A stretch of 32,000 nucleotides of DNA, taken from Microcystis aeruginosa NIES-2549. GTDB lineage: Bacteria > Cyanobacteriota > Cyanobacteriia > Cyanobacteriales > Microcystaceae. Each line of letters opens with the position of its first letter. Position 1 is the stretch's first letter. Location: assembly GCF_000981785.2 (NCBI RefSeq), contig NZ_CP011304.1, positions 4,260,001 to 4,292,000 on the forward strand. The letters are read 5' to 3'. The translations under genes and the position numbers were made by a program. Of the stretch, positions 3,340 through 30,670 are shown piece after piece. The notes under the pieces were generated by a model. The model had not been told where the DNA came from. It saw only the letters and a list, made by a program, of their open reading frames with translations, and made no database searches.

Positions 3340-4269
3340 TTACTTTTGAGGGTTTAACATCGCCTTGGCGGCTTCGCTTAAATAACCGATTTGTCCATAG
3401 GCATAGAGAAGATTATCAAAGCTTTTAGCGGGATCATTGATAAATTTGACAGATTTAACCAATCCTCTCACCAAACGCTCACCTCCTCGCCCAAATTGAG
3501 CCAATCCCGTCTTTCCTGCCACTTCTTCCCGGTAGTGTTCGCTGATGCCTTGCCACCAACTGCGACGCATAAACCATTGACGATTGATTCTTTCCGGGGC
3601 AACATTGTGTTCCACCAATGCTGCGGGAAAATAGCCTACTTGCCATCCCTGGGCGAGTGCTAGTTCTGTAGTGTATAATTCCTCGTTAGAAAGAAGTTTT
3701 TTACCAATTCTTCCCAAATTAGGGTCAAAACCGCCAATCTTCTCCCAGAAATCTCGCCGGATTGAGTAATTAACCCCTCGCGGAGTTAAATCCGCCTGGC
3801 TGATATATACCACATTGTCGCCCAAATCGAAGGCCCCTAAACCACCGGCTAACTGATCGGATAACCAATTGGGTTGACTGTAGCCTTGCGGCCAAATTAA
3901 GGTGACTTTTCCCCCAGCTACTGCCAGTTTTTGGTTATTTTCGTAGGCATTTAACAGAATTTGCAACCATTGAGGACTAGCGATCGCATCGTCATCCAAA
4001 TAGGCTAAAATCGGCGCTCTAGTTTCCTTCGCCCCGCGATTTCTGGCGGTAGATAGCCCTAAAATAGGTTCGTAAACGTATTTTAGCCGCCCATCTCCCA
4101 GACGCGACTCGACCACCTGACGGGTTTTATCGGTAGATGCGTTATCAACCACTAAAATCTCACAATCTGGGCAAGTTTGCGCCAAAAGACTATCGATCGC
4201 TGCTGCTAGGTAGTGATCGCGGTTGTAGGTACAGATAATCCCTGCTATTTTAGGAGCCATGGCTATCAA
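3340..4269 (-). CDS. Family 2 glycosyltransferase
   Basis: 309 aa. GIICTYNRDHYLAAAIDSLLAQT, VVDNASTDKT and a YLDDDA DXD motif. First gene of the minus-strand sugar operon. Confidence 0.85.
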   Translation of the reverse strand: MIAMAPKIAGIICTYNRDHYLAAAIDSLLAQTCPDCEILVVDNASTDKTRQVVESRLGDGRLKYVYEPILGLSTARNRGAKETRAPILAYLDDDAIASPQWLQILLNAYENNQKLAVAGGKVTLIWPQGYSQPNWLSDQLAGGLGAFDLGDNVVYISQADLTPRGVNYSIRRDFWEKIGGFDPNLGRIGKKLLSNEELYTTELALAQGWQVGYFPAALVEHNVAPERINRQWFMRRSWWQGISEHYREEVAGKTGLAQFGRGGERLVRGLVKSVKFINDPAKSFDNLLYAYGQIGYLSEAAKAMLNPQK

Positions 4270-12725: not shown

Positions 12726-13153
12726 CTTAAGATATGTCGGGAGTCAGGAGACAGGGAACAGCTATCAGGAAGGCTCTCTTAGGTTTGCTGGGTAAAATGT
12801 ATTCTAAGATACATTCTTGCGGGCAAGTGAGTGGAACGAACCACAGAGACACAAAGGACACAAAGACCGATCACTACTATATAAGTTAAACTTATCACAC
12901 AAAGAATAAGAGAGCCATCAGGGATCGGATTTGATACTAAATCCGTTGAGTATAGGCCACTTATGAGGAGAGGCAAAAGGCAATAATTTGCTATAATCAG
13001 TCTAGGATATACGAAAAATTTTCAGATATTTATTCCGAGAAATCGACTAAAAACGTTGCCAGATAAGGATTTGAGAGAATGACATTTGAGAGAATGAAAC
13101 GACCCTAGTATTAAGGGGCGAGCCATCTTCGATTTAATTATAACCAGCTACTT

Positions 13154-13179
13154 AACTGATAACTGATAACTGATAACTG
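13154..13179. repeat. Heptamer tandem repeat (aactgat)x3.7, STRR-like
   Basis: Direct reading. It abuts the bolA stop codon and the 23-bp MITE-end copy at 13132-13154. Confidence 0.85.
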
Positions 13180-15133: not shown

Positions 15134-15277
15134 TAAGTAGCTGGTTATAATTAAATTTAAAATGGATTTTGGGTTCGATCCCCCCTTAGTCCCCCCTTGA
15201 TAAGGGGGGTGTCGATCCCCCCTTAGTCCCCCCTTGATAAGGTGGGTGTCTGATAATTTTTAACGCCTACCTACTTA
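15134..15277. mobile_element. 144-bp MITE with AGTAG.../...CTACT termini and flanking TA, carrying two 37-bp hairpin modules
   Basis: Ends read tgg-TA-AGTAGCTGG ... CCTACCTACT-TA-taag. Inside are 2 x gatccccccttagtccccccttgataagggg(g/t)gtgtc (15177-15250). The right end tctgataatttttaacgcctacctactta is homologous to 18576-18596. Confidence 0.6.
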
Positions 15278-15341: not shown

Positions 15342-17696
15342 ATGGACGATAAAACCACAAAGCCGGAAGCATCGGAATCTGAAGAGAAAAAAGAATCAGA
15401 TTTTGACCAGGAAAAGGAACAGGCTCAAGTTTGGACGGGAAAAATCACTGCTTTTGTTGCCCATCAACTCCGAACCTCCGCTCCTTCCCTTCCAATTATC
15501 GGGGGTAGCATTACAGGTATCTTAACTTGGCTTAGTCAACATGACACGGTTAAGGCGATTATTGTCGGGGGAGTCACCTTTATCGTCACGGGCTTTTTTA
15601 CCTACGGATCAGCCTGGAGTCAAGGGTTTTTAGAAATAGCAAGAACCAAAGGTAAAAATCATGGTAAAGGTTCAGCTTTAAGCTTTTTTGTTTGGCTAGA
15701 CAAAGGACTGGAAAAAATACGTTGGCAATTAGCTAATCCTGACGGGAAATATTTAATTAAATTACGGGATTCAGATTGTCGTTATGATGATATTGAAGGG
15801 ATTGAAGATGCAATCTTTGGTTTTTCTACCCCAGAACTAGAAGAAATTTTTATTAATTTGGATCTGAGTCAATTAGAACTGCGCTCAGAAGAAGAGTCTA
15901 AAGGTACGGGGGATGATATTTGGGATTTATTGCGACGGGCTAAAAAGAGGACAAATTTACGGTTGTTAATTCTGGCTCCTGGTGGCCGAGGAAAAACGAC
16001 TTTATTGCGTCATTTAGCCTATAACTACGCTCTAAAACAACCGAAACAAAATGCACCTTTTTTAATTCCTGTCTTTTTACGTTTACGGAGATGGCAGGAA
16101 GTGATTACCACCACAGAAGGATTGGATTTACCAACCTTAATTGAGCGACATCTTAAACAAGATATTTCTCAAGAATTAGATTTACCTCAGCACTGGGCTA
16201 AAAGTCATTTAACCCGTCAGCGAATGTTAGTGATGTTTGATGGTTTTGATGAAGTTAAACCCGAATATGCCGAAAAAATCAGTCAATGGATTGGCAAACA
16301 GTGGCATGATTTTCGCCAAAACTATTTTATTTTAACCTCTCGTCCCAAAGGCTATCAAGCGTTTAGCTCTGAGCATAAACCTCGACAAAAGGTGTTTATT
16401 AATGAATTTACCGATAAAAATATTCATGATTTTGTCTATAAATGGTATTTCTGGCAAGAGCAGGAAACCAGAGTTAGCAGAAGTTTAAAAGCTAAACAAG
16501 AAGCTGCCGACAATAAAGCAAAGGATTTAATTAATCAGTTATTTGCTCTCGATGATTCCGGGGAAAGTTCTACTCTATTAGCCTTAGCGAGAAATCCCTT
16601 AAATCTGAATATGATAGTACAGTTACATCGGGCAAACTTTGGCTCGGAACAAAAATTACCTCAGCAACGAGTGGATTTATTTCGCCGAATTTTTGATCTG
16701 CAATTGATCACTCGCCCTCAAGCTAGGGGCATTGATATGATTTTAGATAATAATGAGGAAAATCATCGTCAACGGGTATTGCAACAGTTAGCCCTGAAAA
16801 TGGGAAATACAACCACGATTGAATATTCAGAATTACTGAGTTCTATACAAAATTTTATTCAGGAATTGGGTTATCCTGAAAGCACTTCGGCTAAGGATTT
16901 TGTAGAGCGGTTAATTCATGTGAGCGAGTTAATTTTGAAAAAGGATGAATACTATGAGTTTGCCCATAATCTTTTTCAGTCCTATTTAATTGCTTTGGAG
17001 ATTAAACGGTTAAAGCAAGAAAATTTACTCTGGGAAAATTGGGAACAAAATCTCTGGTACGAGACTTGCATTATGTATGCAACTTTATTGACTAATCCGA
17101 CTGATTTTATTGTCTATTTTTATAATCAATCTAATCCTAAAGCTCAGGGATTAGCGGAGCGATGTTATCGAGAATTACCTGTTAAAAAACGTCGAGGTTT
17201 GGAATTTTTAGAACAAAGACGACAGACTTCTCTCTTTACTCAACTAGAAACCTATCTGAAAAATGGCCAATGGCGCGAAGCCGATGAAGAAACGGCGCGG
17301 TTAATGTTGTTAATTGCTAAAAGGGAAGATGAAGGCTGGCTAGATGAAGAAAGTGCTGAAAACTTTCCCTGTGAGGAATTACGCACCATTGACAAGCTCT
17401 GGGTAGATAATAGCGGCAGCAAATTTGGCTTTTCTGTGCAGAAAAAAGTCTGGCTGGATTGCGGTGGTGTCCCAGGGGAATACGATTATGATGTGTATAA
17501 AAAATTCGCTGACGAGGTGGGTTGGCGCAGGAGCGGAAACTGGTTGAGCTATGATGAGCTAACTTTTTCATTAGAGGGTAGTCAACACGCATACCTACCG
17601 TCACCTTGGTGGAGGGTCGTGGGGCGCACACCAGGGGGGGGGGTTGGTCGCCGCGTGTGGTGGAGGGTATCTCTTTTCTCGCGCAGCGACTTGTAA
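15342..17696 (+). CDS. STAND NTPase: N-terminal transmembrane segment, NACHT domain and C-terminal GUN4-like domain
   Basis: 784 aa. Two hydrophobic helices at about aa 35-90. Walker A LILAPGGRGKTTLLRHL (aa 209-224) and Walker B MLVMFDGFDEV (aa 295-305). C-terminal YLKNGQWREADEETARLML ... LRTIDKLWVDNSGSKFGFSVQKKVWLDCGG ... VGWR ... LTFSL resembles cyanobacterial GUN4 domains. TATAAT at 15310 and a G-rich RBS lie before the ATG. Confidence 0.85.
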   Translation: MDDKTTKPEASESEEKKESDFDQEKEQAQVWTGKITAFVAHQLRTSAPSLPIIGGSITGILTWLSQHDTVKAIIVGGVTFIVTGFFTYGSAWSQGFLEIARTKGKNHGKGSALSFFVWLDKGLEKIRWQLANPDGKYLIKLRDSDCRYDDIEGIEDAIFGFSTPELEEIFINLDLSQLELRSEEESKGTGDDIWDLLRRAKKRTNLRLLILAPGGRGKTTLLRHLAYNYALKQPKQNAPFLIPVFLRLRRWQEVITTTEGLDLPTLIERHLKQDISQELDLPQHWAKSHLTRQRMLVMFDGFDEVKPEYAEKISQWIGKQWHDFRQNYFILTSRPKGYQAFSSEHKPRQKVFINEFTDKNIHDFVYKWYFWQEQETRVSRSLKAKQEAADNKAKDLINQLFALDDSGESSTLLALARNPLNLNMIVQLHRANFGSEQKLPQQRVDLFRRIFDLQLITRPQARGIDMILDNNEENHRQRVLQQLALKMGNTTTIEYSELLSSIQNFIQELGYPESTSAKDFVERLIHVSELILKKDEYYEFAHNLFQSYLIALEIKRLKQENLLWENWEQNLWYETCIMYATLLTNPTDFIVYFYNQSNPKAQGLAERCYRELPVKKRRGLEFLEQRRQTSLFTQLETYLKNGQWREADEETARLMLLIAKREDEGWLDEESAENFPCEELRTIDKLWVDNSGSKFGFSVQKKVWLDCGGVPGEYDYDVYKKFADEVGWRRSGNWLSYDELTFSLEGSQHAYLPSPWWRVVGRTPGGGVGRRVWWRVSLFSRSDL

Positions 17697-17720
17697 CCTG
17701 TAATATATCACAGATTTAGA

Positions 17721-18004
17721 CATCTTAAACCAGTAAAAAGCCCCCCTTATCAAGGGGGGTTGGGGGGATCAAACCTATGCAATTAACCCATCATCTTAAA
17801 CCAGTAAAAAGCCCCCCTTATCAAGGGGGGTTGGGGGGATCAAACCTATGCAATTAACCAATCATCTTAAATCAGTAAAAAGCCCCCCTTATCAAGGGGG
17901 GTTGGGGGGATCAAACCTATGCAATTAACCAATCATCTTAAACCAGTAAAAAGCCCCCCTTATCAAGGGGGGTTGGGGGGATCAAACCTATGCAATTAAC
18001 CAAT
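17721..18004. repeat. 71-bp tandem repeat x4; each unit contains the hairpin palindrome and the DUF559 start codon region
   Basis: The unit is catcttaaaccagtaaaaagCCCCCCTTATCAAGGGGGGttggggggatcaaacctATGcaattaacc(a/c)at. Anchors at 17721, 17792, 17863 and 17934 give a period of 71. Confidence 0.9.
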
Positions 18005-18424
18005 CATCATCATCTACCCTACAATCCCAAACTCGTAGAACGAGCCAAAGAACTCCGTAAAAATATGACCAAAGCTGAAAGAAAACTTTGGTATGAATAC
18101 TTAAAAAATTTTCAATATAGAGTTCATCGTCAAAGACCGATTGATCAATTTATTGTTGACTTTTATTGCCCCGAATTAAAATTAGTGATTGAAATTGATG
18201 GTGATATTCATAATAGGGAAGATGCTCAGAACTATGACTTAGAAAGAACCCAAATTTTATCAGGTTATGGATTAACAGTAATCCGCTTTACTAATCAAGA
18301 AGTTTTGAGTAATTTTGAGGGAGTTTGTGGAGTAATTGGAAGTTTGATCCCCCCAACCCCCCTTGATAAGGGGGGCTTTGATCCCTCCTTATTAAGGGGC
18401 TTTGATCCCCCCAACCCCCCTTGA
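17990..18424 (+). CDS. DUF559 (Vsr-like/PD-(D/E)xK) endonuclease-domain protein
   Basis: LPYNPKLVERAKELRKNMTKAERKLWYEYLK ... FRRQ-like HRQRPIDQFIVDFYCPELKLVIEIDGDIH ... ERTQILSGYGLTVIRFTNQEV is the DUF559 signature. The last ~30 codons (IPPTPLDKGGFDPSLLRGFDPPNPP) are encoded by the downstream repeat array. Confidence 0.8.
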   Translation: MQLTNHHHLPYNPKLVERAKELRKNMTKAERKLWYEYLKNFQYRVHRQRPIDQFIVDFYCPELKLVIEIDGDIHNREDAQNYDLERTQILSGYGLTVIRFTNQEVLSNFEGVCGVIGSLIPPTPLDKGGFDPSLLRGFDPPNPP

Positions 18425-18577
18425 TAAGGGGGGCTTTGATCCCTCCTTATTAAGGGGCTTTGATCCCCCCAACCCCCCTTGATAAGGGGGGCTTTGATCC
18501 CTCCTTATTAAGGGGCTTTGATCCCCCCAACCCCCCTTGATAAGGGGGGCTTTGATCCCTCCTTATTAAGGGGGATC
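18343..18577. repeat. 58-bp tandem repeat x4, the reverse-complement partner of the upstream array
   Basis: The unit is tttGATCCCCCCAACCCCCCTTGATAAGGGGGGctttgatccctccttattaaggggc. Anchors at 18346, 18404, 18462 and 18520. The first 30 nt are the exact reverse complement of ccccccttatcaaggggggttggggggatc in the 71-bp units. Confidence 0.9.
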
Positions 18578-18675
18578 TGACAATTTTTAACACCTAACTA
18601 ATTAGAGAGGAAAAGAATACCCAAAAAGTTCTATTGACAACTTTTACAAGAGAGATCAAGGAGAAAATCAAGGAT

Positions 18676-20007: not shown

Positions 20008-20655
20008 ATGACCACCACCGCCGATGATGTTTGGAAATTATTAGCCGAATTAGTAGAAGCTCAAAAAGAAACAGAAAGATGCTTTCAAGAAACCGAGCGA
20101 CGCTTTCAAGAAACCGAGCGTGTTCTCAAAGAACAATCTTTAAAAACCGAGCGACGCTTTCAAGAAACCGAGCGCATTCTCAAAGAACAATCTTTAAAAA
20201 CCGATCGCCAAATTACCAGAGTCAGTCAAGAAATTGGTAATCTTGGAGGTAAATGGGGACGTTTTGTCGAAAATATGGTAGCCCCAGCTTGTGAGACTTT
20301 ATTTTTAAATCGTGATATTCCCGTACATCAAGTTAGTCAAAGAGTCAGAAAACGTCTCGACGGTAAAACCCTAGAAATTGATGTGTTAGTAACTAATGAG
20401 AATCATGTGCTAGTAGTGGAAGTCAAAAGTAGTTTAAGTGTAGATGATGTCAAAGAATTAATCAAGAATCTAACAGAATTTAGGCAATTTTTCCCAGAAT
20501 ATAACCAGAAACAATTATATGGGGCAGTAGCAGGCATTGAAATCGAAGAGGGAGCGGATAAATATGCCTATCGTCAAGGTTTATTTGTCTTGGCACAAAG
20601 GGGAGAAAATGTAGCGATTCTTAACGATACTGAGTTTCAACCGAAAACGTGGTAG
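20008..20655 (+). CDS. Coiled-coil plus PD-(D/E)xK-like nuclease-fold protein (DUF3782-like), copy 1
   Basis: 215 aa. N-terminal heptad modules (ERCFQET, ERRFQET, ERVLKEQSLKT ...), then LEIDVLVTNENHVLVVEVKS (D...E-x-K). Near-identical to copy 2. Confidence 0.7.
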   Translation: MTTTADDVWKLLAELVEAQKETERCFQETERRFQETERVLKEQSLKTERRFQETERILKEQSLKTDRQITRVSQEIGNLGGKWGRFVENMVAPACETLFLNRDIPVHQVSQRVRKRLDGKTLEIDVLVTNENHVLVVEVKSSLSVDDVKELIKNLTEFRQFFPEYNQKQLYGAVAGIEIEEGADKYAYRQGLFVLAQRGENVAILNDTEFQPKTW

Positions 20656-20712
20656 GGGCTTTAAAAACAAGATATAATCAAGTTATTGTCAAGTTAATTC
20701 AGATGAAAAATT

Positions 20713-21348
20713 ATGACCACCACCGCCGATGACGTTTGGAAATTATTAGCCGAATTAGTAGAAGCTCAAAAAGAGACAGAAAGATGCTTTCAAGAAACCG
20801 AGCGACGCTTTCAAGAAACCGAGCGGATTCTCAAAGAACAATCGTTAGAAACCGAGCGGATTCTCAAAGAACAATCTTTAAAAACCGATCGCCAAATTAC
20901 TAGACTCAGTAAAGAAATTGGTAATCTTGGCGGTAAATGGGGACGTTTTGTCGAAAATATGGTAGCTCCAGCTTGTGAGACTTTATTTTTAAATCGTCAG
21001 ATTCCCGTACATCAAGTTAGTCAAAGAGTCAGAAAACGTCTCGACGGTAAAACCCTAGAAATTGATGTGTTAGTAACTAATGAAAATCATGTGCTGGTAG
21101 TGGAAGTCAAAAGTAGTTTAAGTGTAGATGATGTCAAAGAATTAATCAAGAATCTAACAGAATTTAGGCAATTTTTCCCAGAATATAACCAGAAACAATT
21201 ATATGGGGCAGTAGCAGGCATTGAAATCGAAGAAGGAGCAGATAAATATGCCTATCGTCAAGGTTTATTTGTCTTGGCACAAAGGGGGGAAAATGTAGCA
21301 ATTCTTAACGATACTGAGTTTCAACCGAAAACGTGGTATGATCCTTAA
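20713..21348 (+). CDS. Coiled-coil plus PD-(D/E)xK-like nuclease-fold protein (DUF3782-like), copy 2
   Basis: 211 aa. Tandem paralog of 20008-20655 including ~45 nt of upstream sequence. Lacks one ERRFQET module and has a different C-terminal end (..TWYDP). Confidence 0.7.
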   Translation: MTTTADDVWKLLAELVEAQKETERCFQETERRFQETERILKEQSLETERILKEQSLKTDRQITRLSKEIGNLGGKWGRFVENMVAPACETLFLNRQIPVHQVSQRVRKRLDGKTLEIDVLVTNENHVLVVEVKSSLSVDDVKELIKNLTEFRQFFPEYNQKQLYGAVAGIEIEEGADKYAYRQGLFVLAQRGENVAILNDTEFQPKTWYDP

Positions 21349-21349
21349 G

Positions 21350-21465
21350 CTTGTCTTTGGGAAAGTCCAGTGCGATTCTGGTACTGTGCCGCAGCTGTAA
21401 TCAAGTAAAAAGTAAAAAGAGTACATCTTCCCTTTTTCCTTGCGAGTCAGAATGCCAATTACAAG
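21350..21465 (+). promoter_or_regulatory. Cobalamin riboswitch (short form, no large peripheral extension) upstream of cobG-cobH-cobI
   Basis: GGGAAAGUCCAGUGCGAUUCUGGUACUGUGCCGCAGCUGUAA (21359-21400) closely matches the conserved core as I recall it from E. coli btuB (GGGAAUCCAGUGCGAAUCUGGAGCUGACGCGCAGCGGUAA). B12-box-like AGUCAGAAUGCC at 21445-21456. Closing helix CUUGU (21350-54) / ACAAG (21461-65). Confidence 0.7.
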
Positions 21466-21532
21466 TTTTTAATCGGTAGATAGACAAATATTTTCTAACT
21501 ACTTCTCTGCGTCGCATGGAGAACAAACAACG

Positions 21533-22948
21533 GTGAATTGGTTAGTTGAAGCAAATGCTTGTCCTGGTTTATTTTATGGAACTGCTGCCCAGGATGGGTT
21601 TTTAATTCGTCTCCGCACCCCCGGTGGATGGCTCAATTCTCCACAGGGAAAAGCGATCGCCACTTGGCTCGAACAATGGCAGACGACAATACAAGTTACC
21701 AATCGGGCAAATCTGCAAATTCGCGGACTGCAAAAATCCCCCAGTTTAGAAGAATTTCAAACCCTGCAAAAATTAGGGTTAGCCGCCCATAATCCCAGTA
21801 TCGATCATCTGCGTAATATCATGTCCAGTCCCACGGCTGGAATTGACTGTCAAGAATCGATCGATACTCGTCCATTAGTCCAAGAATTAGATAATTTTAT
21901 CCAAAATTATCCATCAATTGCCCAACTAAGTCCTAAATTTAGTATCGGCATCGATGGCGGTGGTGCAGTGGGAATTGGCACCGGTTCAACTATGGCCTGG
22001 CAACACCGCTATAATGAGATTCAGCTATCAGCAATTGTCCTCAATAATCCGAAAAATTTAACTTCTATTCTTTGCTTTCGATTAGCCCTCGGAGGAGATA
22101 AACAATTATATGACACGGACTTATTAATTGAGCCAGAAAACTGTTTAGCTGTGGTCAAAGCTTTAGTCACAGTTTATATCGATTATGTTCAACAAAACCC
22201 CAATATCAAGGGTAAAAAACCTCGGATGAAACACCTGCTCAAAGATTGGGGATTGACAAAATATCTCGAACAAGTTAACTACCAATTACATCGGACTTCT
22301 ACCGGCATAATACAAGGGCAAGAATACCAGCAGGCTGCCCATTCTACTCAACCCTATTTTCATCTGGGAATTCATCCTCAAAAGCAACCAGGATTATCTT
22401 ATATTGGTCTATCATTAAGATTAGGACAATTGACGGCTAATCAACTATGGGGATTAGCGGCACTATCAGAAACTTTTGGCAGTGGTCAGTTACGATTAAC
22501 CCCTTGGCAGACTGTTATATTACCCGATATTCCCGATGAAAAAGTCTCAGAATTGTTGCCAAAACTGGCATCCTTAGGATTATCCGCTTCTCCCGGATGG
22601 GATGCGGGGATAGTTGCCTGTAGCGGTAAACCGGGCTGTGCGGCGGCGGCCACTGCAACTCAAATTCATGCTTCTCTCTTGGCAGATTATTTGAAAGAAC
22701 ACTTAACCTGCAATTCTCCTGTTAATATTCACTTGACAGGTTGTGCTAAATCCTGCGCTCAACCGGGTCCGGCCGAAATTACCCTTTTAGGAACTACCAT
22801 CGAGGAAAATGGCCAAATACTAGAAGCTTATCAAGTCTATATGGGTGATAGTCAAAAATTCTTAGAAACACCCATATTTGAGGGAGAATTTACCAAGATT
22901 CCCCCCCTCATAGCCCAAATTTTAAGCTCCCAAAAATCGAAAATTTAG
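21533..22948 (+). CDS. cobG: Precorrin-3B synthase (CobG; sulfite/nitrite-reductase-like)
   Basis: 471 aa with a GTG start. N-terminal ACPGLFYGTAAQDGFLIRLRTPGG is the CobG signature. C-terminal Cys cluster CSGKPGCAAA ... GCAKSC. Confidence 0.8.
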   Translation: MNWLVEANACPGLFYGTAAQDGFLIRLRTPGGWLNSPQGKAIATWLEQWQTTIQVTNRANLQIRGLQKSPSLEEFQTLQKLGLAAHNPSIDHLRNIMSSPTAGIDCQESIDTRPLVQELDNFIQNYPSIAQLSPKFSIGIDGGGAVGIGTGSTMAWQHRYNEIQLSAIVLNNPKNLTSILCFRLALGGDKQLYDTDLLIEPENCLAVVKALVTVYIDYVQQNPNIKGKKPRMKHLLKDWGLTKYLEQVNYQLHRTSTGIIQGQEYQQAAHSTQPYFHLGIHPQKQPGLSYIGLSLRLGQLTANQLWGLAALSETFGSGQLRLTPWQTVILPDIPDEKVSELLPKLASLGLSASPGWDAGIVACSGKPGCAAAATATQIHASLLADYLKEHLTCNSPVNIHLTGCAKSCAQPGPAEITLLGTTIEENGQILEAYQVYMGDSQKFLETPIFEGEFTKIPPLIAQILSSQKSKI

Positions 22949-28507: not shown

Positions 28508-30268
28508 ATGGTCTTAAGTAGTAATGAAAAAGTTATGAACACGGCAACAAAACCGATGTATGAATGGAAGGACATCAACTGGCGAAAAGCTGAAAGATGT
28601 GTTTTTAAGTTATCAAAAAGAATATTCAAAGCCAGTCAACGGGGTGATGTCAAATTAGTCCACAAATTACAAAGGCTACTCCTAAAAAGCTGGTACGCCA
28701 AACTGATAGCCGTCAGACGGGTTAGCCAAGATAATCAAGGCAAGAAAACCGCAGGGGTAGATGGGATAAAATCCTTAACACCCAAACAAAGAATGGCACT
28801 TGTCAATAATCTAAAACCTGGCAATAAATCAAAACCAACTCGTAGAGTATGGATACCAAAACCCAATACGGATGAAAAGCGACCTCTAGGGATTCCCACC
28901 ATGTACGAACGGGCATTACAAGCCTTAGTAAAACTGGCATTAGAACCCGAATGGGAAGCAAAATTTGAACCTAACAGTTATGGATTTAGACCAGCACGTT
29001 CAGCCCATGACGCAATCGGAGCAATCTACATAAGCATCAACAAAAAGCCCAAATATGTGCTAGATGCGGACATAAGTAAATGCTTTGATAAAATAAACCA
29101 CCAGAAACTACTGACAAAACTTCAAACTTACCCCAAGCTAAGACAACAAATCAAAGCATGGCTAAAGAGTGGAGTCATGGATGGAAAAAACCTATTCCCT
29201 ACCAATGAAGGCACACCACAGGGAGGTGTAATCTCCCCTTTACTAGCTAACATAGCCTTACACGGCATGGAAGAAAGAGTTAAGCAATATGCAAAAACTC
29301 TGAAAGGCAATAAATCCAAAAATGAACAAGCCTTAACCCTAATCAGATATGCAGATGATTTTGTTATCCTGCACGAAGATTTAAAGGTAATAAAGGAATG
29401 TCAAGAAATCATTAAACAATGGTTAGCAGAAATGGGGCTAGAACTGAAGCCTAGTAAAACAAGAATATCCCATACTCTTGAAACTTATGATGATTACGTT
29501 GGATTTGATTTTCTCGGATTCAACATCAGGCAATACCAAGTCGGAAAACATCACGGGGCAAAAAGTAGTAAAGGAGTCAAACTAGGTTTTAAAACCCTAA
29601 TCAAGCCTAGTGCTGAAAAAGTCAAGTCCCATCTAAAGAAATTGGGAGAAGTAGTAAATAGTCAGAAGTCATCCCCACAGGATGCCTTAATCAAACGACT
29701 CAATCCAATCATTAGAGGATGGAGCAATTACTATTCATCAGTAGTAAGCTCAAAAACATTCACAGATTGTGATTACTACTTCTTTGAAAAACTCAAGAGA
29801 TGGGCATACAGACGACACCCAATGAAAAACAAAACTTGGATAATGCGTAAATATTGGCATACTGAGGGAAAAGATAATTGGGTATTCAGCACAAGAGGAG
29901 GTAAAAACCCCTTCAAACTGGCAAGACACCTAGATACAAAAATCGTAAGATACGTCAAGGTGAAAGGGGATAAAAGTCCCTATGATGGGGATTTAATATA
30001 CTGGAGTAGTCGAATGGGTAAACACCCAGAAATGCCACCAGAAAAAGCTATTCTACTCAAAAGACAGCAAGGACGTTGTGCATATTGTGGACTATATTTC
30101 CAAGATGGAGACATACTCGAAACCGACCACATTATCCCTAAATCAAAAGGGGGTAAAAACAATCGAGATAATAAACAGTTACTCCATCGACATTGCCACG
30201 ATTCTAAAACTGCATTAGATAAAACTGGTACTCATGACAAAGAGCCATTGGAGAGAGGAGCGGTGTGA
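28508..30268 (+). CDS. Group II intron-encoded protein: reverse transcriptase, maturase (X), DNA-binding and HNH endonuclease domains
   Basis: 586 aa; the likely start is MNTATKPMYEW at 28535. RT motifs RVWIPKPNTDEKRPLGIPTMYERALQ, GTPQGGVISPLLANIAL and IRYADDFVILH. X domain RLNPIIRGWSNYY. HNH CAYCG...ETDHIIPKSKGG...LLHRHCH. Confidence 0.9.
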   Translation: MVLSSNEKVMNTATKPMYEWKDINWRKAERCVFKLSKRIFKASQRGDVKLVHKLQRLLLKSWYAKLIAVRRVSQDNQGKKTAGVDGIKSLTPKQRMALVNNLKPGNKSKPTRRVWIPKPNTDEKRPLGIPTMYERALQALVKLALEPEWEAKFEPNSYGFRPARSAHDAIGAIYISINKKPKYVLDADISKCFDKINHQKLLTKLQTYPKLRQQIKAWLKSGVMDGKNLFPTNEGTPQGGVISPLLANIALHGMEERVKQYAKTLKGNKSKNEQALTLIRYADDFVILHEDLKVIKECQEIIKQWLAEMGLELKPSKTRISHTLETYDDYVGFDFLGFNIRQYQVGKHHGAKSSKGVKLGFKTLIKPSAEKVKSHLKKLGEVVNSQKSSPQDALIKRLNPIIRGWSNYYSSVVSSKTFTDCDYYFFEKLKRWAYRRHPMKNKTWIMRKYWHTEGKDNWVFSTRGGKNPFKLARHLDTKIVRYVKVKGDKSPYDGDLIYWSSRMGKHPEMPPEKAILLKRQQGRCAYCGLYFQDGDILETDHIIPKSKGGKNNRDNKQLLHRHCHDSKTALDKTGTHDKEPLERGAV

Positions 30269-30291
30269 GGTGAAAGTCTCACGCACCGTTT
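30258..30291 (+). ncRNA. Group II intron domain V (catalytic hairpin)
   Basis: GAGCGGUGUGAGGUGAAAGUCUCACGCACCGUUU aligns almost position for position with the ai5-gamma DV as I recall it (GAGCCGUAUGCGAUGAAAGUCGCACGUACGGUUC), including the AGC triad and GAAA loop. Confidence 0.85.
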
Positions 30292-30670
30292 TGAAGCCGA
30301 GCCAGAATGGTGACATATCTGGCTTAGGGCAACCGACCAGTGAGCAATCCGTTTTGCTTGCCAAGTCGTTTGGCTGTGCTAGATGGTTTTACAATTACGC
30401 TCTAAACTTGACATCCGAAACTTACAAGCAAACTGGAAAAGGATTAAGCAGAGACGAAATAATTAAGCTGCTGCCTTCCCTAAAAAAAAGTATGAGTGGT
30501 TAAGCGAAGTACCATCGCAGGTATTACAACAAGCCGCTTTAAATCTTTCTAGTGCTTTCCTTAACTTTTTTGAAGGTAGAGCTAAATATCCTAACTTCAA
30601 GAAAAAACAGAATAGGCAGTCGATTAGATTTCCTCAGCACTGTAAGTTAAAAAATGATGTTCTGGTATTA

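What the first reader, a model, noticed from the sequence alone, without database searches (positions are those of the whole stretch)
17721..18577. DUF559 endonuclease gene bracketed by inverted 4+4 tandem arrays of a G6/C6 hairpin palindrome
Upstream are four 71-bp units, each with CCCCCCTTATCAAGGGGGG-TTGGGGGGATC. Downstream are four 58-bp units beginning with the exact reverse complement GATCCCCCCAA-CCCCCCTTGATAAGGGGGG. Each palindrome can form an 8-bp stem with a 3-nt loop. The gene's start codon and first ~7 codons are part of the upstream unit (so they are repeated 4 times), and its last ~30 codons are encoded by the downstream array. A nuclease gene flanked by inverted copies of structured palindromes recalls the RAYT/REP (REPIN) arrangement. 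The same hairpin module occurs twice inside a nearby 144-bp MITE (15177-15250). This suggests a DUF559-linked family of mobile or amplifiable palindromic elements that I do not know to be characterised.
Basis: partly seen in the sequence, partly recalled or inferred. Interest (0 to 1): 0.7.

Follow-up and report, generated by a model that had tools for sequence, protein, structure and literature searches.

The report
Nuclease gene bracketed by hairpin repeats
A small DUF559 nuclease gene in Microcystis lies between mirror-image arrays of a G/C hairpin repeat; the same bracket surrounds its relatives in many bacterial phyla, which suggests an undescribed nuclease-plus-repeat partnership resembling REP/RAYT systems.

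Summary
A 4.1 x 71-bp array and a 4.0 x 58-bp array flank a 144-aa DUF559 gene, and the two sides share a perfect 38-bp inverted repeat.

The bracket is not a local oddity. Among 78 relatives with complete flanks (many cyanobacterial orders plus seven other phyla, GC 28-62%), 73% carry C5-7-TTnnnAA-G5-7-nn-G5-7-AT(C) upstream. 69% carry its reverse complement over the last codons, which produces the protein tail IPPNPP/IPPTPLxKGG. Enrichment over distal DNA of the same loci is about 70-fold.

More distant DUF559 genes, including Photobacterium and E. coli ycjD, have looser versions. Some copies sit in frame inside Type ISP restriction-modification genes.

The same module is also a dispersed, amplifiable repeat. 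In Microcystis it forms the internal array (1 to more than 10 units) of a roughly 150-bp MITE. It also occurs as solo insertions inside genes.

Array sizes differ between strains (1, 2, 3 or 4 upstream units). One strain lacks the whole NACHT-GUN4 + DUF559 block, with the junction inside the hairpin.

Best reading: a REPIN/RAYT-like partnership that uses a Vsr-fold nuclease. Action of the nuclease on the module is inferred, not shown. I found no description of this arrangement in the literature I could search.

The parts
17721..18008 (+). Upstream tandem array, 4.1 x 71 bp. Each unit holds a 5'-type module CCCCCCTTATCAAGGGGGG-TT-GGGGGGATC (17741-17770, 17812-17841, 17883-17912, 17954-17983), followed by AAACCT, the ATG and 7 codons.
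   Evidence: Other strains have 1 (L003), 2 (L006) or 3 x 50-bp (L005) units.
17990..18424 (+). DUF559 (Vsr-fold PD-(D/E)XK) nuclease gene, 144 aa. The core is residues 9-119. The tail IPPTPLDKGGFDPSLLRGFDPPNPP is the translation of the downstream array.
   Evidence: Pfam E 3.9e-30. PDB 3HRL E 6e-14. D57, E68 and D70 are invariant in 20 relatives. dN/dS is 0.04-0.27 in informative pairs.
18343..18573 (+). Downstream tandem array, 4.0 x 58 bp. Each unit holds a 3'-type module GATCCCCCC-AA-CCCCCCTTGATAAGGGGGG (18346-18375, 18404-18433, 18462-18491, 18520-18549) plus a degenerate second hairpin CTTTGATCCCTCCTTATTAAGGGGC.
   Evidence: A 17-bp alternative hairpin can form within the unit. Other strains have irregular 25/33-bp subunits, 6-12 copies.
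18575..18604 (+). Right terminus of a second MITE copy (ATCTGACAATTTTTAACACCTAACTAATTA), directly abutting the downstream array.
   Evidence: 82% identical to 15244-15277 (family D4). Matches the MITE consensus seen in metagenome copies. Retained in the strain that lacks the block.
15134..15277 (+). Complete MITE. Its termini are TAAGTAGCTGG... and ...CCTACCTACTTA, and its core holds two 37-bp units of the same module (GATCCCCCC-TTAGT-CCCCCCTTGATAAGGGGGG).
   Evidence: The same family, with 1 to more than 10 internal units, accounts for 75 of 132 module clusters in metagenome contigs.
15342..17696 (+). NACHT-GUN4 STAND NTPase gene. In Microcystis it travels together with the DUF559 gene as a two-gene block.
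   Evidence: Pfam NACHT and GUN4. The GUN4 part hits PADLOC PD-T4-6 at E 2.7e-34. The same pair sits in a different genomic context in L003, L005 and L006. The whole block is absent in L001.

Best explanation
The DUF559 gene and the G/C hairpin module form one co-inherited unit: a small Vsr-fold nuclease gene sitting between inverted (half-)copies of a REPIN-like palindromic repeat. The full repeat reads [GATC-Cn-nn-Cn-loop-Gn]-spacer-[Cn-loop-Gn-nn-Gn-GATC]. The gene keeps [hairpin + G-arm] on its 5' side and [C-arm + hairpin] on its 3' side, where the repeat overlaps the last codons.

The same repeat populates the rest of the genome as solo modules, doublets, MITE cores and in-frame inserts.

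I propose that it works like a REP/RAYT partnership but with a different enzyme. The nuclease recognises or nicks the folded or slipped module. Break repair and template switching at modules then copy, expand and contract them, giving the 71-bp and 58-bp arrays and duplicated gene ends. The same process makes modules recombination junctions, giving loss or gain of the adjacent NACHT-GUN4 block and relocation of the gene unit.

Shown: the conserved bracket, the dispersal of the module, copy-number polymorphism between strains, and junctions that fall inside the hairpin.

Inferred: that the DUF559 protein is the enzyme acting on the module.
For: Conservation of the bracket.
- Upstream module in 57 of 78 gene copies, downstream in 54 of 78, both in 40, neither in 7. 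Background in the same loci is 0.083 per kb, and shuffled sequence gives none.
- In 29 of 58 copies the 3' module starts at the same codon, with ATC encoding Ile120. It was therefore inherited with the gene rather than inserted repeatedly.
- The bracket is retained after transfer into Patescibacteria (GC 0.28), Calditrichaceae, Bacteroidota, Chloroflexia and Trueperaceae (GC 0.62), at only about 56-69% protein identity.
- DUF559 genes at 39-52% identity have analogous G/C-run hairpins with other loops. Module-type peptides flank 20-22% of 133 diverse cluster representatives, against 2.5% of control windows.

Exchange within a genome.
- The 5' and 3' loops are identical in 15 of 36 loci, against 3.0 expected (maximum 10 in 5000 shuffles). 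Distal modules mostly share the loop of the gene-adjacent ones.

Dispersal and mobility of the module.
- 195 modules fall in 132 clusters in 975 kb of metagenome contigs.
- A solo 52-nt GATC-bounded module replaces 21 nt of a RAYT gene.
- A gene-less doublet and a DUF559-bearing unit are both inserted in frame in Type ISP restriction-modification genes. A related restriction-modification gene lacks the insert.

Plasticity at modules.
- Arrays differ between four Microcystis strains.
- At least two tandem modules occur at gene ends in 17 (upstream) and 11 (downstream) gene copies.
- Gene-end plus module duplications also occur in L023, P0005 and E. coli ycjD.
- L001 lacks the 3.3-kb block, with the junction inside the 19-nt hairpin.
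- Similarity between Nostoc genomes is confined to the hairpin-to-hairpin unit: 96.7% over 452 bp.

The gene itself.
- It is stand-alone, with no conserved neighbour: 168 Pfam families among 70 upstream neighbours.
- It is under purifying selection.
Against: - There is no biochemical evidence for any DUF559 protein acting on hairpins. A PD-(D/E)XK nuclease alone cannot perform strand transfer.
- About 98% of module clusters are not next to a DUF559 gene.
- The Microcystis MITE has its own terminal repeats, so another transposase may move it.
- The gene is often static for long periods: chpY-DUF559 synteny is shared by Nostocales and Chroococcidiopsis.
- Replication slippage at hairpins could by itself explain the arrays.
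- I could not test genome-wide co-occurrence of modules with presence or absence of the gene, because whole genomes were not available.
- The window allele carries Ile at the nearly invariant Ser73, next to His74.
Confidence: 0.5

Rival explanations
1. The modules are cis-acting transcript or transcription elements of the gene itself. They would act as outward-facing terminators or insulators, and as a 5'-3' RNA panhandle that hides the start codon and silences a potentially toxic nuclease. Dispersed copies would be unrelated by-products.
For: - Read on the minus strand, the upstream hairpins fit the intrinsic-terminator pattern (GGGGGG followed by CTTTTTAC); 9 sites were found against 2.6 expected.
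- A transcript covering both modules folds into a 38-bp panhandle enclosing the ORF (-154 kcal/mol, z = -9.9).
- In several genera the G-run lies 5-10 nt before the ATG, like a ribosome-binding site.
Against: - The distance from the 5' module to the start codon varies from about 10 to 190 nt, and in some loci the module is inverted (L005, L022, L037).
- The downstream hairpins lack a U-tract.
- This reading does not explain the mirrored third run plus GATC, the dispersed copies with genome-specific loops, or the in-frame inserts in other genes.
- No Rfam family matches.
- No transcription start site data were available.
Confidence: 0.2
2. There is no functional link. The modules are the genome's generic REP/MITE-type repeats, spread by other enzymes (a RAYT, an IS transposase acting on the MITE termini, or slippage). 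They merely persist or accumulate at the ends of this gene. DUF559 itself is a solitary Vsr-like mismatch-repair nuclease.
For: - Most modules lie in a MITE with its own termini.
- A RAYT-like Y1 gene abuts the 5' hairpin in L004 (NCBIfam REP_Tyr_transpos, E 1.7e-18, below the cutoff).
- A DUF559 protein in Caulobacter (VsrA) is functionally tied to a cytosine methyltransferase (PMC12907096).
Against: - The 3' module occupies a fixed codon position across orders and phyla.
- The bracket is retained in AT-rich non-cyanobacterial hosts.
- A RAYT was found in only 2 of about 200 loci, and one of those is itself disrupted by a module.
- No cytosine methyltransferase is a conserved neighbour.
Confidence: 0.2
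3. The inverted repeats are the arms of a programmed inversion switch that flips the gene or its promoter.
For: - A perfect 38-bp inverted repeat flanks the gene.
- 'DUF559 domain-containing protein' is enriched (odds ratio 14) among predicted programmed-inversion targets in Milman et al. 2023 (PMC9881135).
Against: - No invertase or recombinase is a conserved neighbour.
- In all four Microcystis strains with the NACHT-GUN4 gene, the DUF559 gene has the same orientation relative to it.
- Flipping the segment would move the whole gene, not a promoter.
Confidence: 0.05

Closest known systems
REP / REPIN elements with their RAYT (Y1 HUH) transposase
   Same: - A low-copy, mostly vertically inherited nuclease gene flanked by inverted copies of a short G/C-rich palindrome.
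- The same palindrome is dispersed in the genome, often as hairpin-forming doublets.
- Repeat sequence is homogenised within a genome.
   Different: - The enzyme is a Vsr-fold PD-(D/E)XK protein (DUF559), not an HUH tyrosine transposase.
- There is no conserved GTAG/CGTC tag.
- The module has a third G/C run plus GATC.
- The 3' copy overlaps the coding sequence.
- Modules also insert in frame into genes.
MITEs and their parent IS elements (for example Nezha; the Microcystis MITE families, recalled from the NIES-843 genome paper, which I could not read here)
   Same: - The 144-bp element at 15134-15277 is a typical MITE with terminal inverted repeats and many dispersed copies.
- Gene-less pairs of 5' and 3' modules look like deletion derivatives of the gene unit.
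   Different: - The DUF559 unit has no identified target-site duplication.
- It is not multi-copy.
- The MITE termini (TAAGTAG...) are not the ends of the DUF559 unit.
- The hairpin module is the expandable core of the MITE, not its terminus.
Rickettsia palindromic elements (in-frame selfish insertions; from my own knowledge)
   Same: Palindromic repeats inserted in frame into protein-coding genes and translated as short peptide segments, as seen here in Type ISP restriction-modification genes and in DUF559 tails.
   Different: No nuclease gene is known to be associated with those elements, and the sequence family and hosts are different.
Vsr-fold homing endonuclease I-Bth0305I and Vsr / VsrA repair nucleases
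   Same: - The same fold group (VSR, DUF559 and DUF2726 form one clade in Steczkiewicz et al. 2012, PMC3424549).
- I-Bth0305I shows that this fold can drive gene mobility through DNA breaks.
   Different: - No intron or intein context, and no defined uninterrupted target allele.
- No linked cytosine methyltransferase.
- No Pfam Vsr (PF03852) family was among the matches at E <= 0.01.
- The only significant solved relative by sequence is the uncharacterised 3HRL.
Small dispersed repeats (SDR) of Nostoc (Elhai et al. 2008; paper not held, recalled from memory)
   Same: Very short hairpin-forming dispersed repeats in cyanobacteria that nest into one another. A 70-nt element is inserted into the 3' hairpin loop in L020, L011, L013 and L050.
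   Different: As far as I recall, no associated protein was identified for the SDRs. I could not check whether any SDR family equals this module.

Membership tests
REP/RAYT (REPIN) system | The associated gene encodes a Y1 HUH transposase (Pfam Y1_Tnp / NCBIfam REP_Tyr_transpos). | tested here: not met
   The bracketed gene is DUF559. A Y1_Tnp gene occurs only in L004 and, disrupted, in L187.
REP/RAYT (REPIN) system | The nuclease gene is flanked by inverted copies of the repeat, and the repeat is dispersed and often forms doublets. | tested here: met
REP/RAYT (REPIN) system | A conserved GTAG or CGTC tag lies at one end of the palindrome (Di Nocera 2013, PMC3733652). | tested here: not met
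   Modules begin and end with G/C runs plus GATC, and the spacers vary (TT, TTA, CA, CTA). GTAG occurs only in the MITE termini.
Insertion sequence / autonomous transposon | Terminal inverted repeats, a recognised transposase, target-site duplication, and several near-identical copies per genome. | tested here: not met
   Inverted repeats are present. However, DUF559 is not a known transposase family, I saw no target-site duplication at the junctions inspected by eye (L217, L218, L187 and the Nostoc alignment), and the gene is low-copy with long-term synteny.
MITE (the 15134-15277 element only) | Short, non-coding, with terminal inverted repeats and many dispersed copies. | tested here: met
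   Terminal repeats TAAGTAG.T.G match at about 9 of the first 11 positions. 75 of 132 sampled clusters carry the same flanks. The target-site duplication was not resolved.
Vsr very-short-patch repair endonuclease | Match to the Vsr family and linkage to a C5-cytosine methyltransferase. | tested here: not met
   The Pfam hits are DUF559, MTES_1575 and DUF2726 only. Neighbours include N6_Mtase in 4 of 70 loci, and no C5 methyltransferase family is among the 25 most frequent neighbour families.
Homing endonuclease gene | The gene interrupts its own recognition site in a conserved host gene, and uninterrupted alleles exist. | tested here: inconclusive
   In-frame insertions occur at three or more recurrent points in Type ISP restriction-modification genes, and a related gene lacks the insert. 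Cleavage specificity is unknown, and most copies are intergenic.
Intrinsic terminator | A G/C hairpin followed by a U-tract. | tested here: inconclusive
   Met by the upstream hairpins on the minus strand only. The downstream hairpins are followed by CTTTGATC.
CRISPR array | Direct repeats separated by unique spacers. | tested here: not met
   Whole units are repeated at 98-100% identity with no unique spacers.

The most novel reading that the evidence does not exclude
DUF559 nucleases (22,559 clusters at 50% identity) are the dedicated enzymes of a second, HUH-independent REPIN-like symbiosis. On this reading they create and maintain G/C-run hairpin repeat families across bacteria: cyanobacterial MITE cores and SDR-like elements, in-frame Pro/Gly linker insertions in restriction-modification genes, and possibly the enterobacterial G/C palindromes next to ycjD. 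The proposed mechanism is nicking of folded modules followed by templated break repair. The gene itself would move as cargo between two repeat copies.
Probability: 0.3. Interest if true: 0.85.

Novelty: new variant of a known kind. Interest (0 to 1): 0.72.

Why it matters
DUF559 is one of the largest uncharacterised nuclease families, and it includes E. coli YcjD. Short G/C palindromic repeats in cyanobacteria and many other bacteria have no known mobilising enzyme.

A conserved physical coupling of the two gives a concrete, testable candidate for both open questions: what DUF559 does, and how non-RAYT palindromic repeats spread.

It would also explain several practical observations:
- the odd Pro/Gly-rich tails and N-terminal extensions annotated on these proteins;
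- the in-frame linker insertions in restriction-modification enzymes;
- strain-level hypervariability and assembly breaks at these loci in Microcystis;
- module-mediated gain or loss of neighbouring genes, here a NACHT-GUN4 protein that may be a defence gene.

Tried and rejected
- Rfam, at gathering and E-value thresholds: no family covers the modules; only chance microRNA-like hits appeared.
- Viral contigs: only 4 weak relatives, so this clade is not phage-borne.
- Conserved operon partner: none. There are 168 Pfam families among upstream neighbours and 97 among downstream neighbours. NACHT-GUN4 adjacency is confined to Microcystis-like loci.
- RAYT as the general partner: found in 2 of about 200 loci only.
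- PADLOC: only weak hits for the nuclease.
- Literature: 25 papers in the library mention DUF559, and none of those I read describes flanking repeats. Elhai 2008 and the Microcystis NIES-843 genome paper could not be read.
- Insertion versus deletion at the L001 site: I first read L001 as an empty insertion site. The hybrid MITE, which keeps a DUF559-array-type unit, makes deletion by recombination between direct modules the simpler reading.
- Clean transposition of the Nostoc unit: rejected as proof. The left and right flanks reassort among L020, L032 and L040, so the unit is a synteny breakpoint rather than a demonstrated hop.
- Stem covariation tests were not run, because the C/G stems hardly vary and would be uninformative.

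Full report
**1. The observation**

- Tandem Repeats Finder reports a 71-bp unit repeated 4.1 times at 17721-18008 (98% matches) and a 58-bp unit repeated 4.0 times at 18343-18573 (100%).
- The 19-nt palindrome CCCCCCTTATCAAGGGGGG has nine exact copies and one near copy in the window. None was found in 100 shuffles.
- The two arrays share a perfect 38-nt inverted repeat.
- Between them lies ORF 17990-18424, 144 aa, Pfam DUF559 at E 3.9e-30.
- The start codon and first seven codons are part of the 71-bp unit. The last 27 codons are translated from the downstream array.
- Best protein hits identify the organism as Microcystis aeruginosa.
- Neighbours are a NACHT-GUN4 STAND NTPase gene upstream and a CobL-like methylase gene downstream.

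**2. The bracket belongs to the gene lineage, not to this locus**

Homologous proteins from Nostoc, Anabaena, Crocosphaera, Allocoleopsis and others end in IPPNPP or IPPTPLxKGG. That tail is the translation of GATCCCCCCAACCCCCCTT..AAGGGGGG. Some of these proteins have N-terminal extensions such as PPFEGGAGGI, which is the upstream module read in frame.

I fetched 80 loci of this clade from one-genome-per-species contigs. They are mostly cyanobacteria of many orders, but also include Ignavibacteriales, Calditrichaceae, Patescibacteria, Stahlbacteria, Bacteroidota, Trueperaceae and Chloroflexia. I then read both flanks of each.
- With a relaxed pattern, 57 of 78 gene copies with full flanks have Cn-T..A-Gn-nn-Gn upstream in the 5' orientation.
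- 54 of 78 have the reverse complement at the 3' end, 40 have both, and only 7 have neither.
- DNA more than 500 nt away in the same loci has 0.083 modules per kb, and shuffled sequence has none. The strict pattern gives similar results.
- In 29 of 58 copies the 3' module starts at the same codon, with ATC encoding Ile120.
- Hosts with GC content from 0.28 to 0.62 keep the modules on both sides.

A 52%-identical homolog in another organism (L127) is flanked by composite modules. DUF559 genes at 39-48% identity also have G/C-run hairpins at their ends, with different loops. These include genes on Picosynechococcus, Pseudanabaena and Synechocystis plasmids and in Photobacterium and Sinorhizobium.

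Among the best 150 of 22,559 cluster representatives, module-type peptides flank the domain in 20-22%, against 2.5% of control windows.

**3. The module is also a dispersed, amplifiable and insertable repeat**

These hold 195 modules in 132 clusters. Only 2 clusters lie within 500 nt of a DUF559 gene.

57% of the clusters lie inside one MITE family. Its structure is TAAGTAGGTAGGCGTTAAAAATTATCAGA-[module]n-GAACCTAAAATCCATTTTTAATTTAATTATAACCAGCTACTTA, with n from 1 to more than 10. The window element at 15134-15277 is a canonical copy.

In other genera, modules occur as arrays, as doublets, and as gene-less 5'+3' pairs about 80 nt apart.

Loops differ between genomes but agree within a genome. 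The 5' and 3' loops are identical in 15 of 36 loci, against 3.0 expected, and distal copies mostly share the loop of the gene-adjacent copies.

Discrete insertions are visible:
- A 52-nt GATC-bounded module replaces 21 nt of a RAYT gene in L187, compared with the intact gene in L004.
- A gene-less doublet sits in frame in a Type ISP restriction-modification gene (L218, site 1).
- DUF559 bracketed by modules sits in frame at a second site of the same gene, and in L217 between two direct copies of an 85-nt doublet.
- At least three insertion points recur in such restriction-modification proteins. A related restriction-modification gene next to the DUF559 unit in L020 and L032 lacks the insert.

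From these cases the basic repeat appears to be a REPIN-like doublet bounded by GATC, with the gene sitting between two (half-)doublets.

**4. Plasticity in Microcystis**

Four strains differ in array structure:
- upstream: 4 x 71 bp (window), 2 x 71 bp (L006), 1 unit (L003), or 3 x 50 bp plus a 330-bp insert (L005);
- downstream: 4 x 58 bp in the window, against 6-12 irregular 25/33-bp subunits in the others.

The 71-bp duplication junction has only about 4 nt of microhomology (CATC). It is independent of the 50-bp event in L005, so duplications that include the module have arisen repeatedly.

The NACHT-GUN4 + DUF559 pair lies in a different chromosomal context in L003, L005 and L006.

A strain with identical CobL and Uma2 genes (L001) lacks the 3.3-kb block altogether. 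What remains is the left part of MITE 1, one module, a DUF559-array-type unit, and the right end of MITE 2. The crossover therefore falls inside the 19-nt hairpin. The simplest reading is deletion by recombination between direct modules.

In L004 a RAYT-like gene abuts the 5' hairpin, and the RAYT-module-DUF559 segment is partly duplicated in tandem.

**5. The gene**

- It is stand-alone. Its neighbours are unrelated across loci, although chpY-DUF559 synteny is shared by Nostocales and Chroococcidiopsis, which shows long residence.
- D57, E68 and D70 are invariant.
- dN/dS is 0.04-0.27 in informative pairs. One copy (L054) is a pseudogene.
- The only solved relative by sequence is the uncharacterised 3HRL, with a weak similarity to the PvuRts1I/AbaSI nuclease domain.

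**6. Interpretation**

The fixed codon position, the retention across phyla and GC contents, and the within-genome agreement of loops argue that gene and module are a co-inherited, interacting unit rather than a chance accumulation.

The anatomy matches REP/RAYT: a low-copy nuclease gene between inverted copies of a dispersed hairpin repeat. However, the enzyme is a Vsr-fold PD-(D/E)XK protein, so membership in REP/RAYT fails and the HUH mechanism cannot apply.

I propose structure-specific nicking of folded modules, followed by templated repair or template switching. This would account for module spread, for the arrays, for duplicated gene ends (also seen in L023, P0005 and E. coli ycjD), and for replacement-type insertions.

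This step is inference. Rival readings remain open (see the Rival explanations section): RNA panhandle or terminator, no functional link, and an inversion switch (PMC9881135).

**7. Novelty**

No paper in the searchable library describes repeats flanking DUF559 genes. Two relevant papers could not be read. I rate the finding as a new variant of a known kind, with high interest, because it links a very large orphan nuclease family to orphan palindromic repeats and is directly testable.

Noticed in passing
window 15342-18424; L003, L005, L006, L004: NACHT-GUN4 and DUF559 form a two-gene block. It occupies different chromosomal sites in different Microcystis strains and is absent in L001. The GUN4 part matches the PADLOC defence candidate PD-T4-6 (E 2.7e-34). 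In L004 the NACHT-GUN4 partner is only 40% identical but still adjacent. This may be a defence cassette with the nuclease as effector.
   Followed up: partly
L217 1-700; L218 3290-3380 and 4330-4900: DUF559 domains bracketed by modules are inserted in frame into Type ISP / N6_Mtase restriction-modification genes at three or more recurrent points. Gene-less doublets are inserted in frame as Pro/Gly-rich peptides (TPPTPLHKGG...).
   Followed up: partly
L187 4340-4400 compared with L004 4183-4947: A RAYT (Y1 transposase) homolog is disrupted by a solo 52-nt GATC-bounded module that replaces 21 nt of coding sequence. In L004 an intact RAYT sits 18 nt from the DUF559 5' hairpin.
   Followed up: yes
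L216 (E. coli K-12 NC_000913.3) 16200-16470: E. coli ycjD (DUF559) ends in a G/C-rich palindrome. Its last 39 nt are duplicated 106 nt downstream (90% identity), next to a further CCCCTC../GGGAGAGGGTTAGGGTGAGGGG palindrome. According to PMC12817139, ycjD occupies the fabI-sapF site exactly in those phylogroups that lack the eefRABCD operon.
   Followed up: partly
window 18206-18208 (codon 73 of the DUF559 ORF): The window allele has Ile where 19 of 20 aligned sequences have Ser (GDSH becomes GDIH), next to the conserved His74. The same change is present in the 226-member cluster P0001.
   Followed up: no
window 13132-13154: An exact 23-nt copy of the MITE left terminus (minus strand) lies directly next to a TAACTGA heptamer repeat (13153-13179). 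It is probably a MITE remnant.
   Followed up: no
window 21319-21477: A cobalamin riboswitch (Rfam RF00174, 32.4 bits, just above the gathering score) lies upstream of ORF 21533-22948, within a cobalamin-biosynthesis gene cluster.
   Followed up: no
window 30255-30327: A group II intron domain V match (RF00029 and RF04357) lies at the end of ORF 28508-30268. This is likely a group II intron with its maturase/reverse transcriptase.
   Followed up: no
window 20008-21348: Two tandem paralogous genes (215 and 211 aa, DUF8196) contain internal 21-, 33- and 54-bp repeats (AAGAAACCGAGCGACGCTTTC...).
   Followed up: no
L020, L011, L013, L016, L050 (about 3360-3440): In several Nostoc genomes a roughly 70-nt element (GGCTACGGTGTACACACAAGTC...GCTTTTGATCCCCCCAACCCCCCTTAAAAA) is inserted into the loop of the DUF559 3' hairpin and regenerates the module. 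This nesting resembles what has been described for small dispersed repeats.
   Followed up: no
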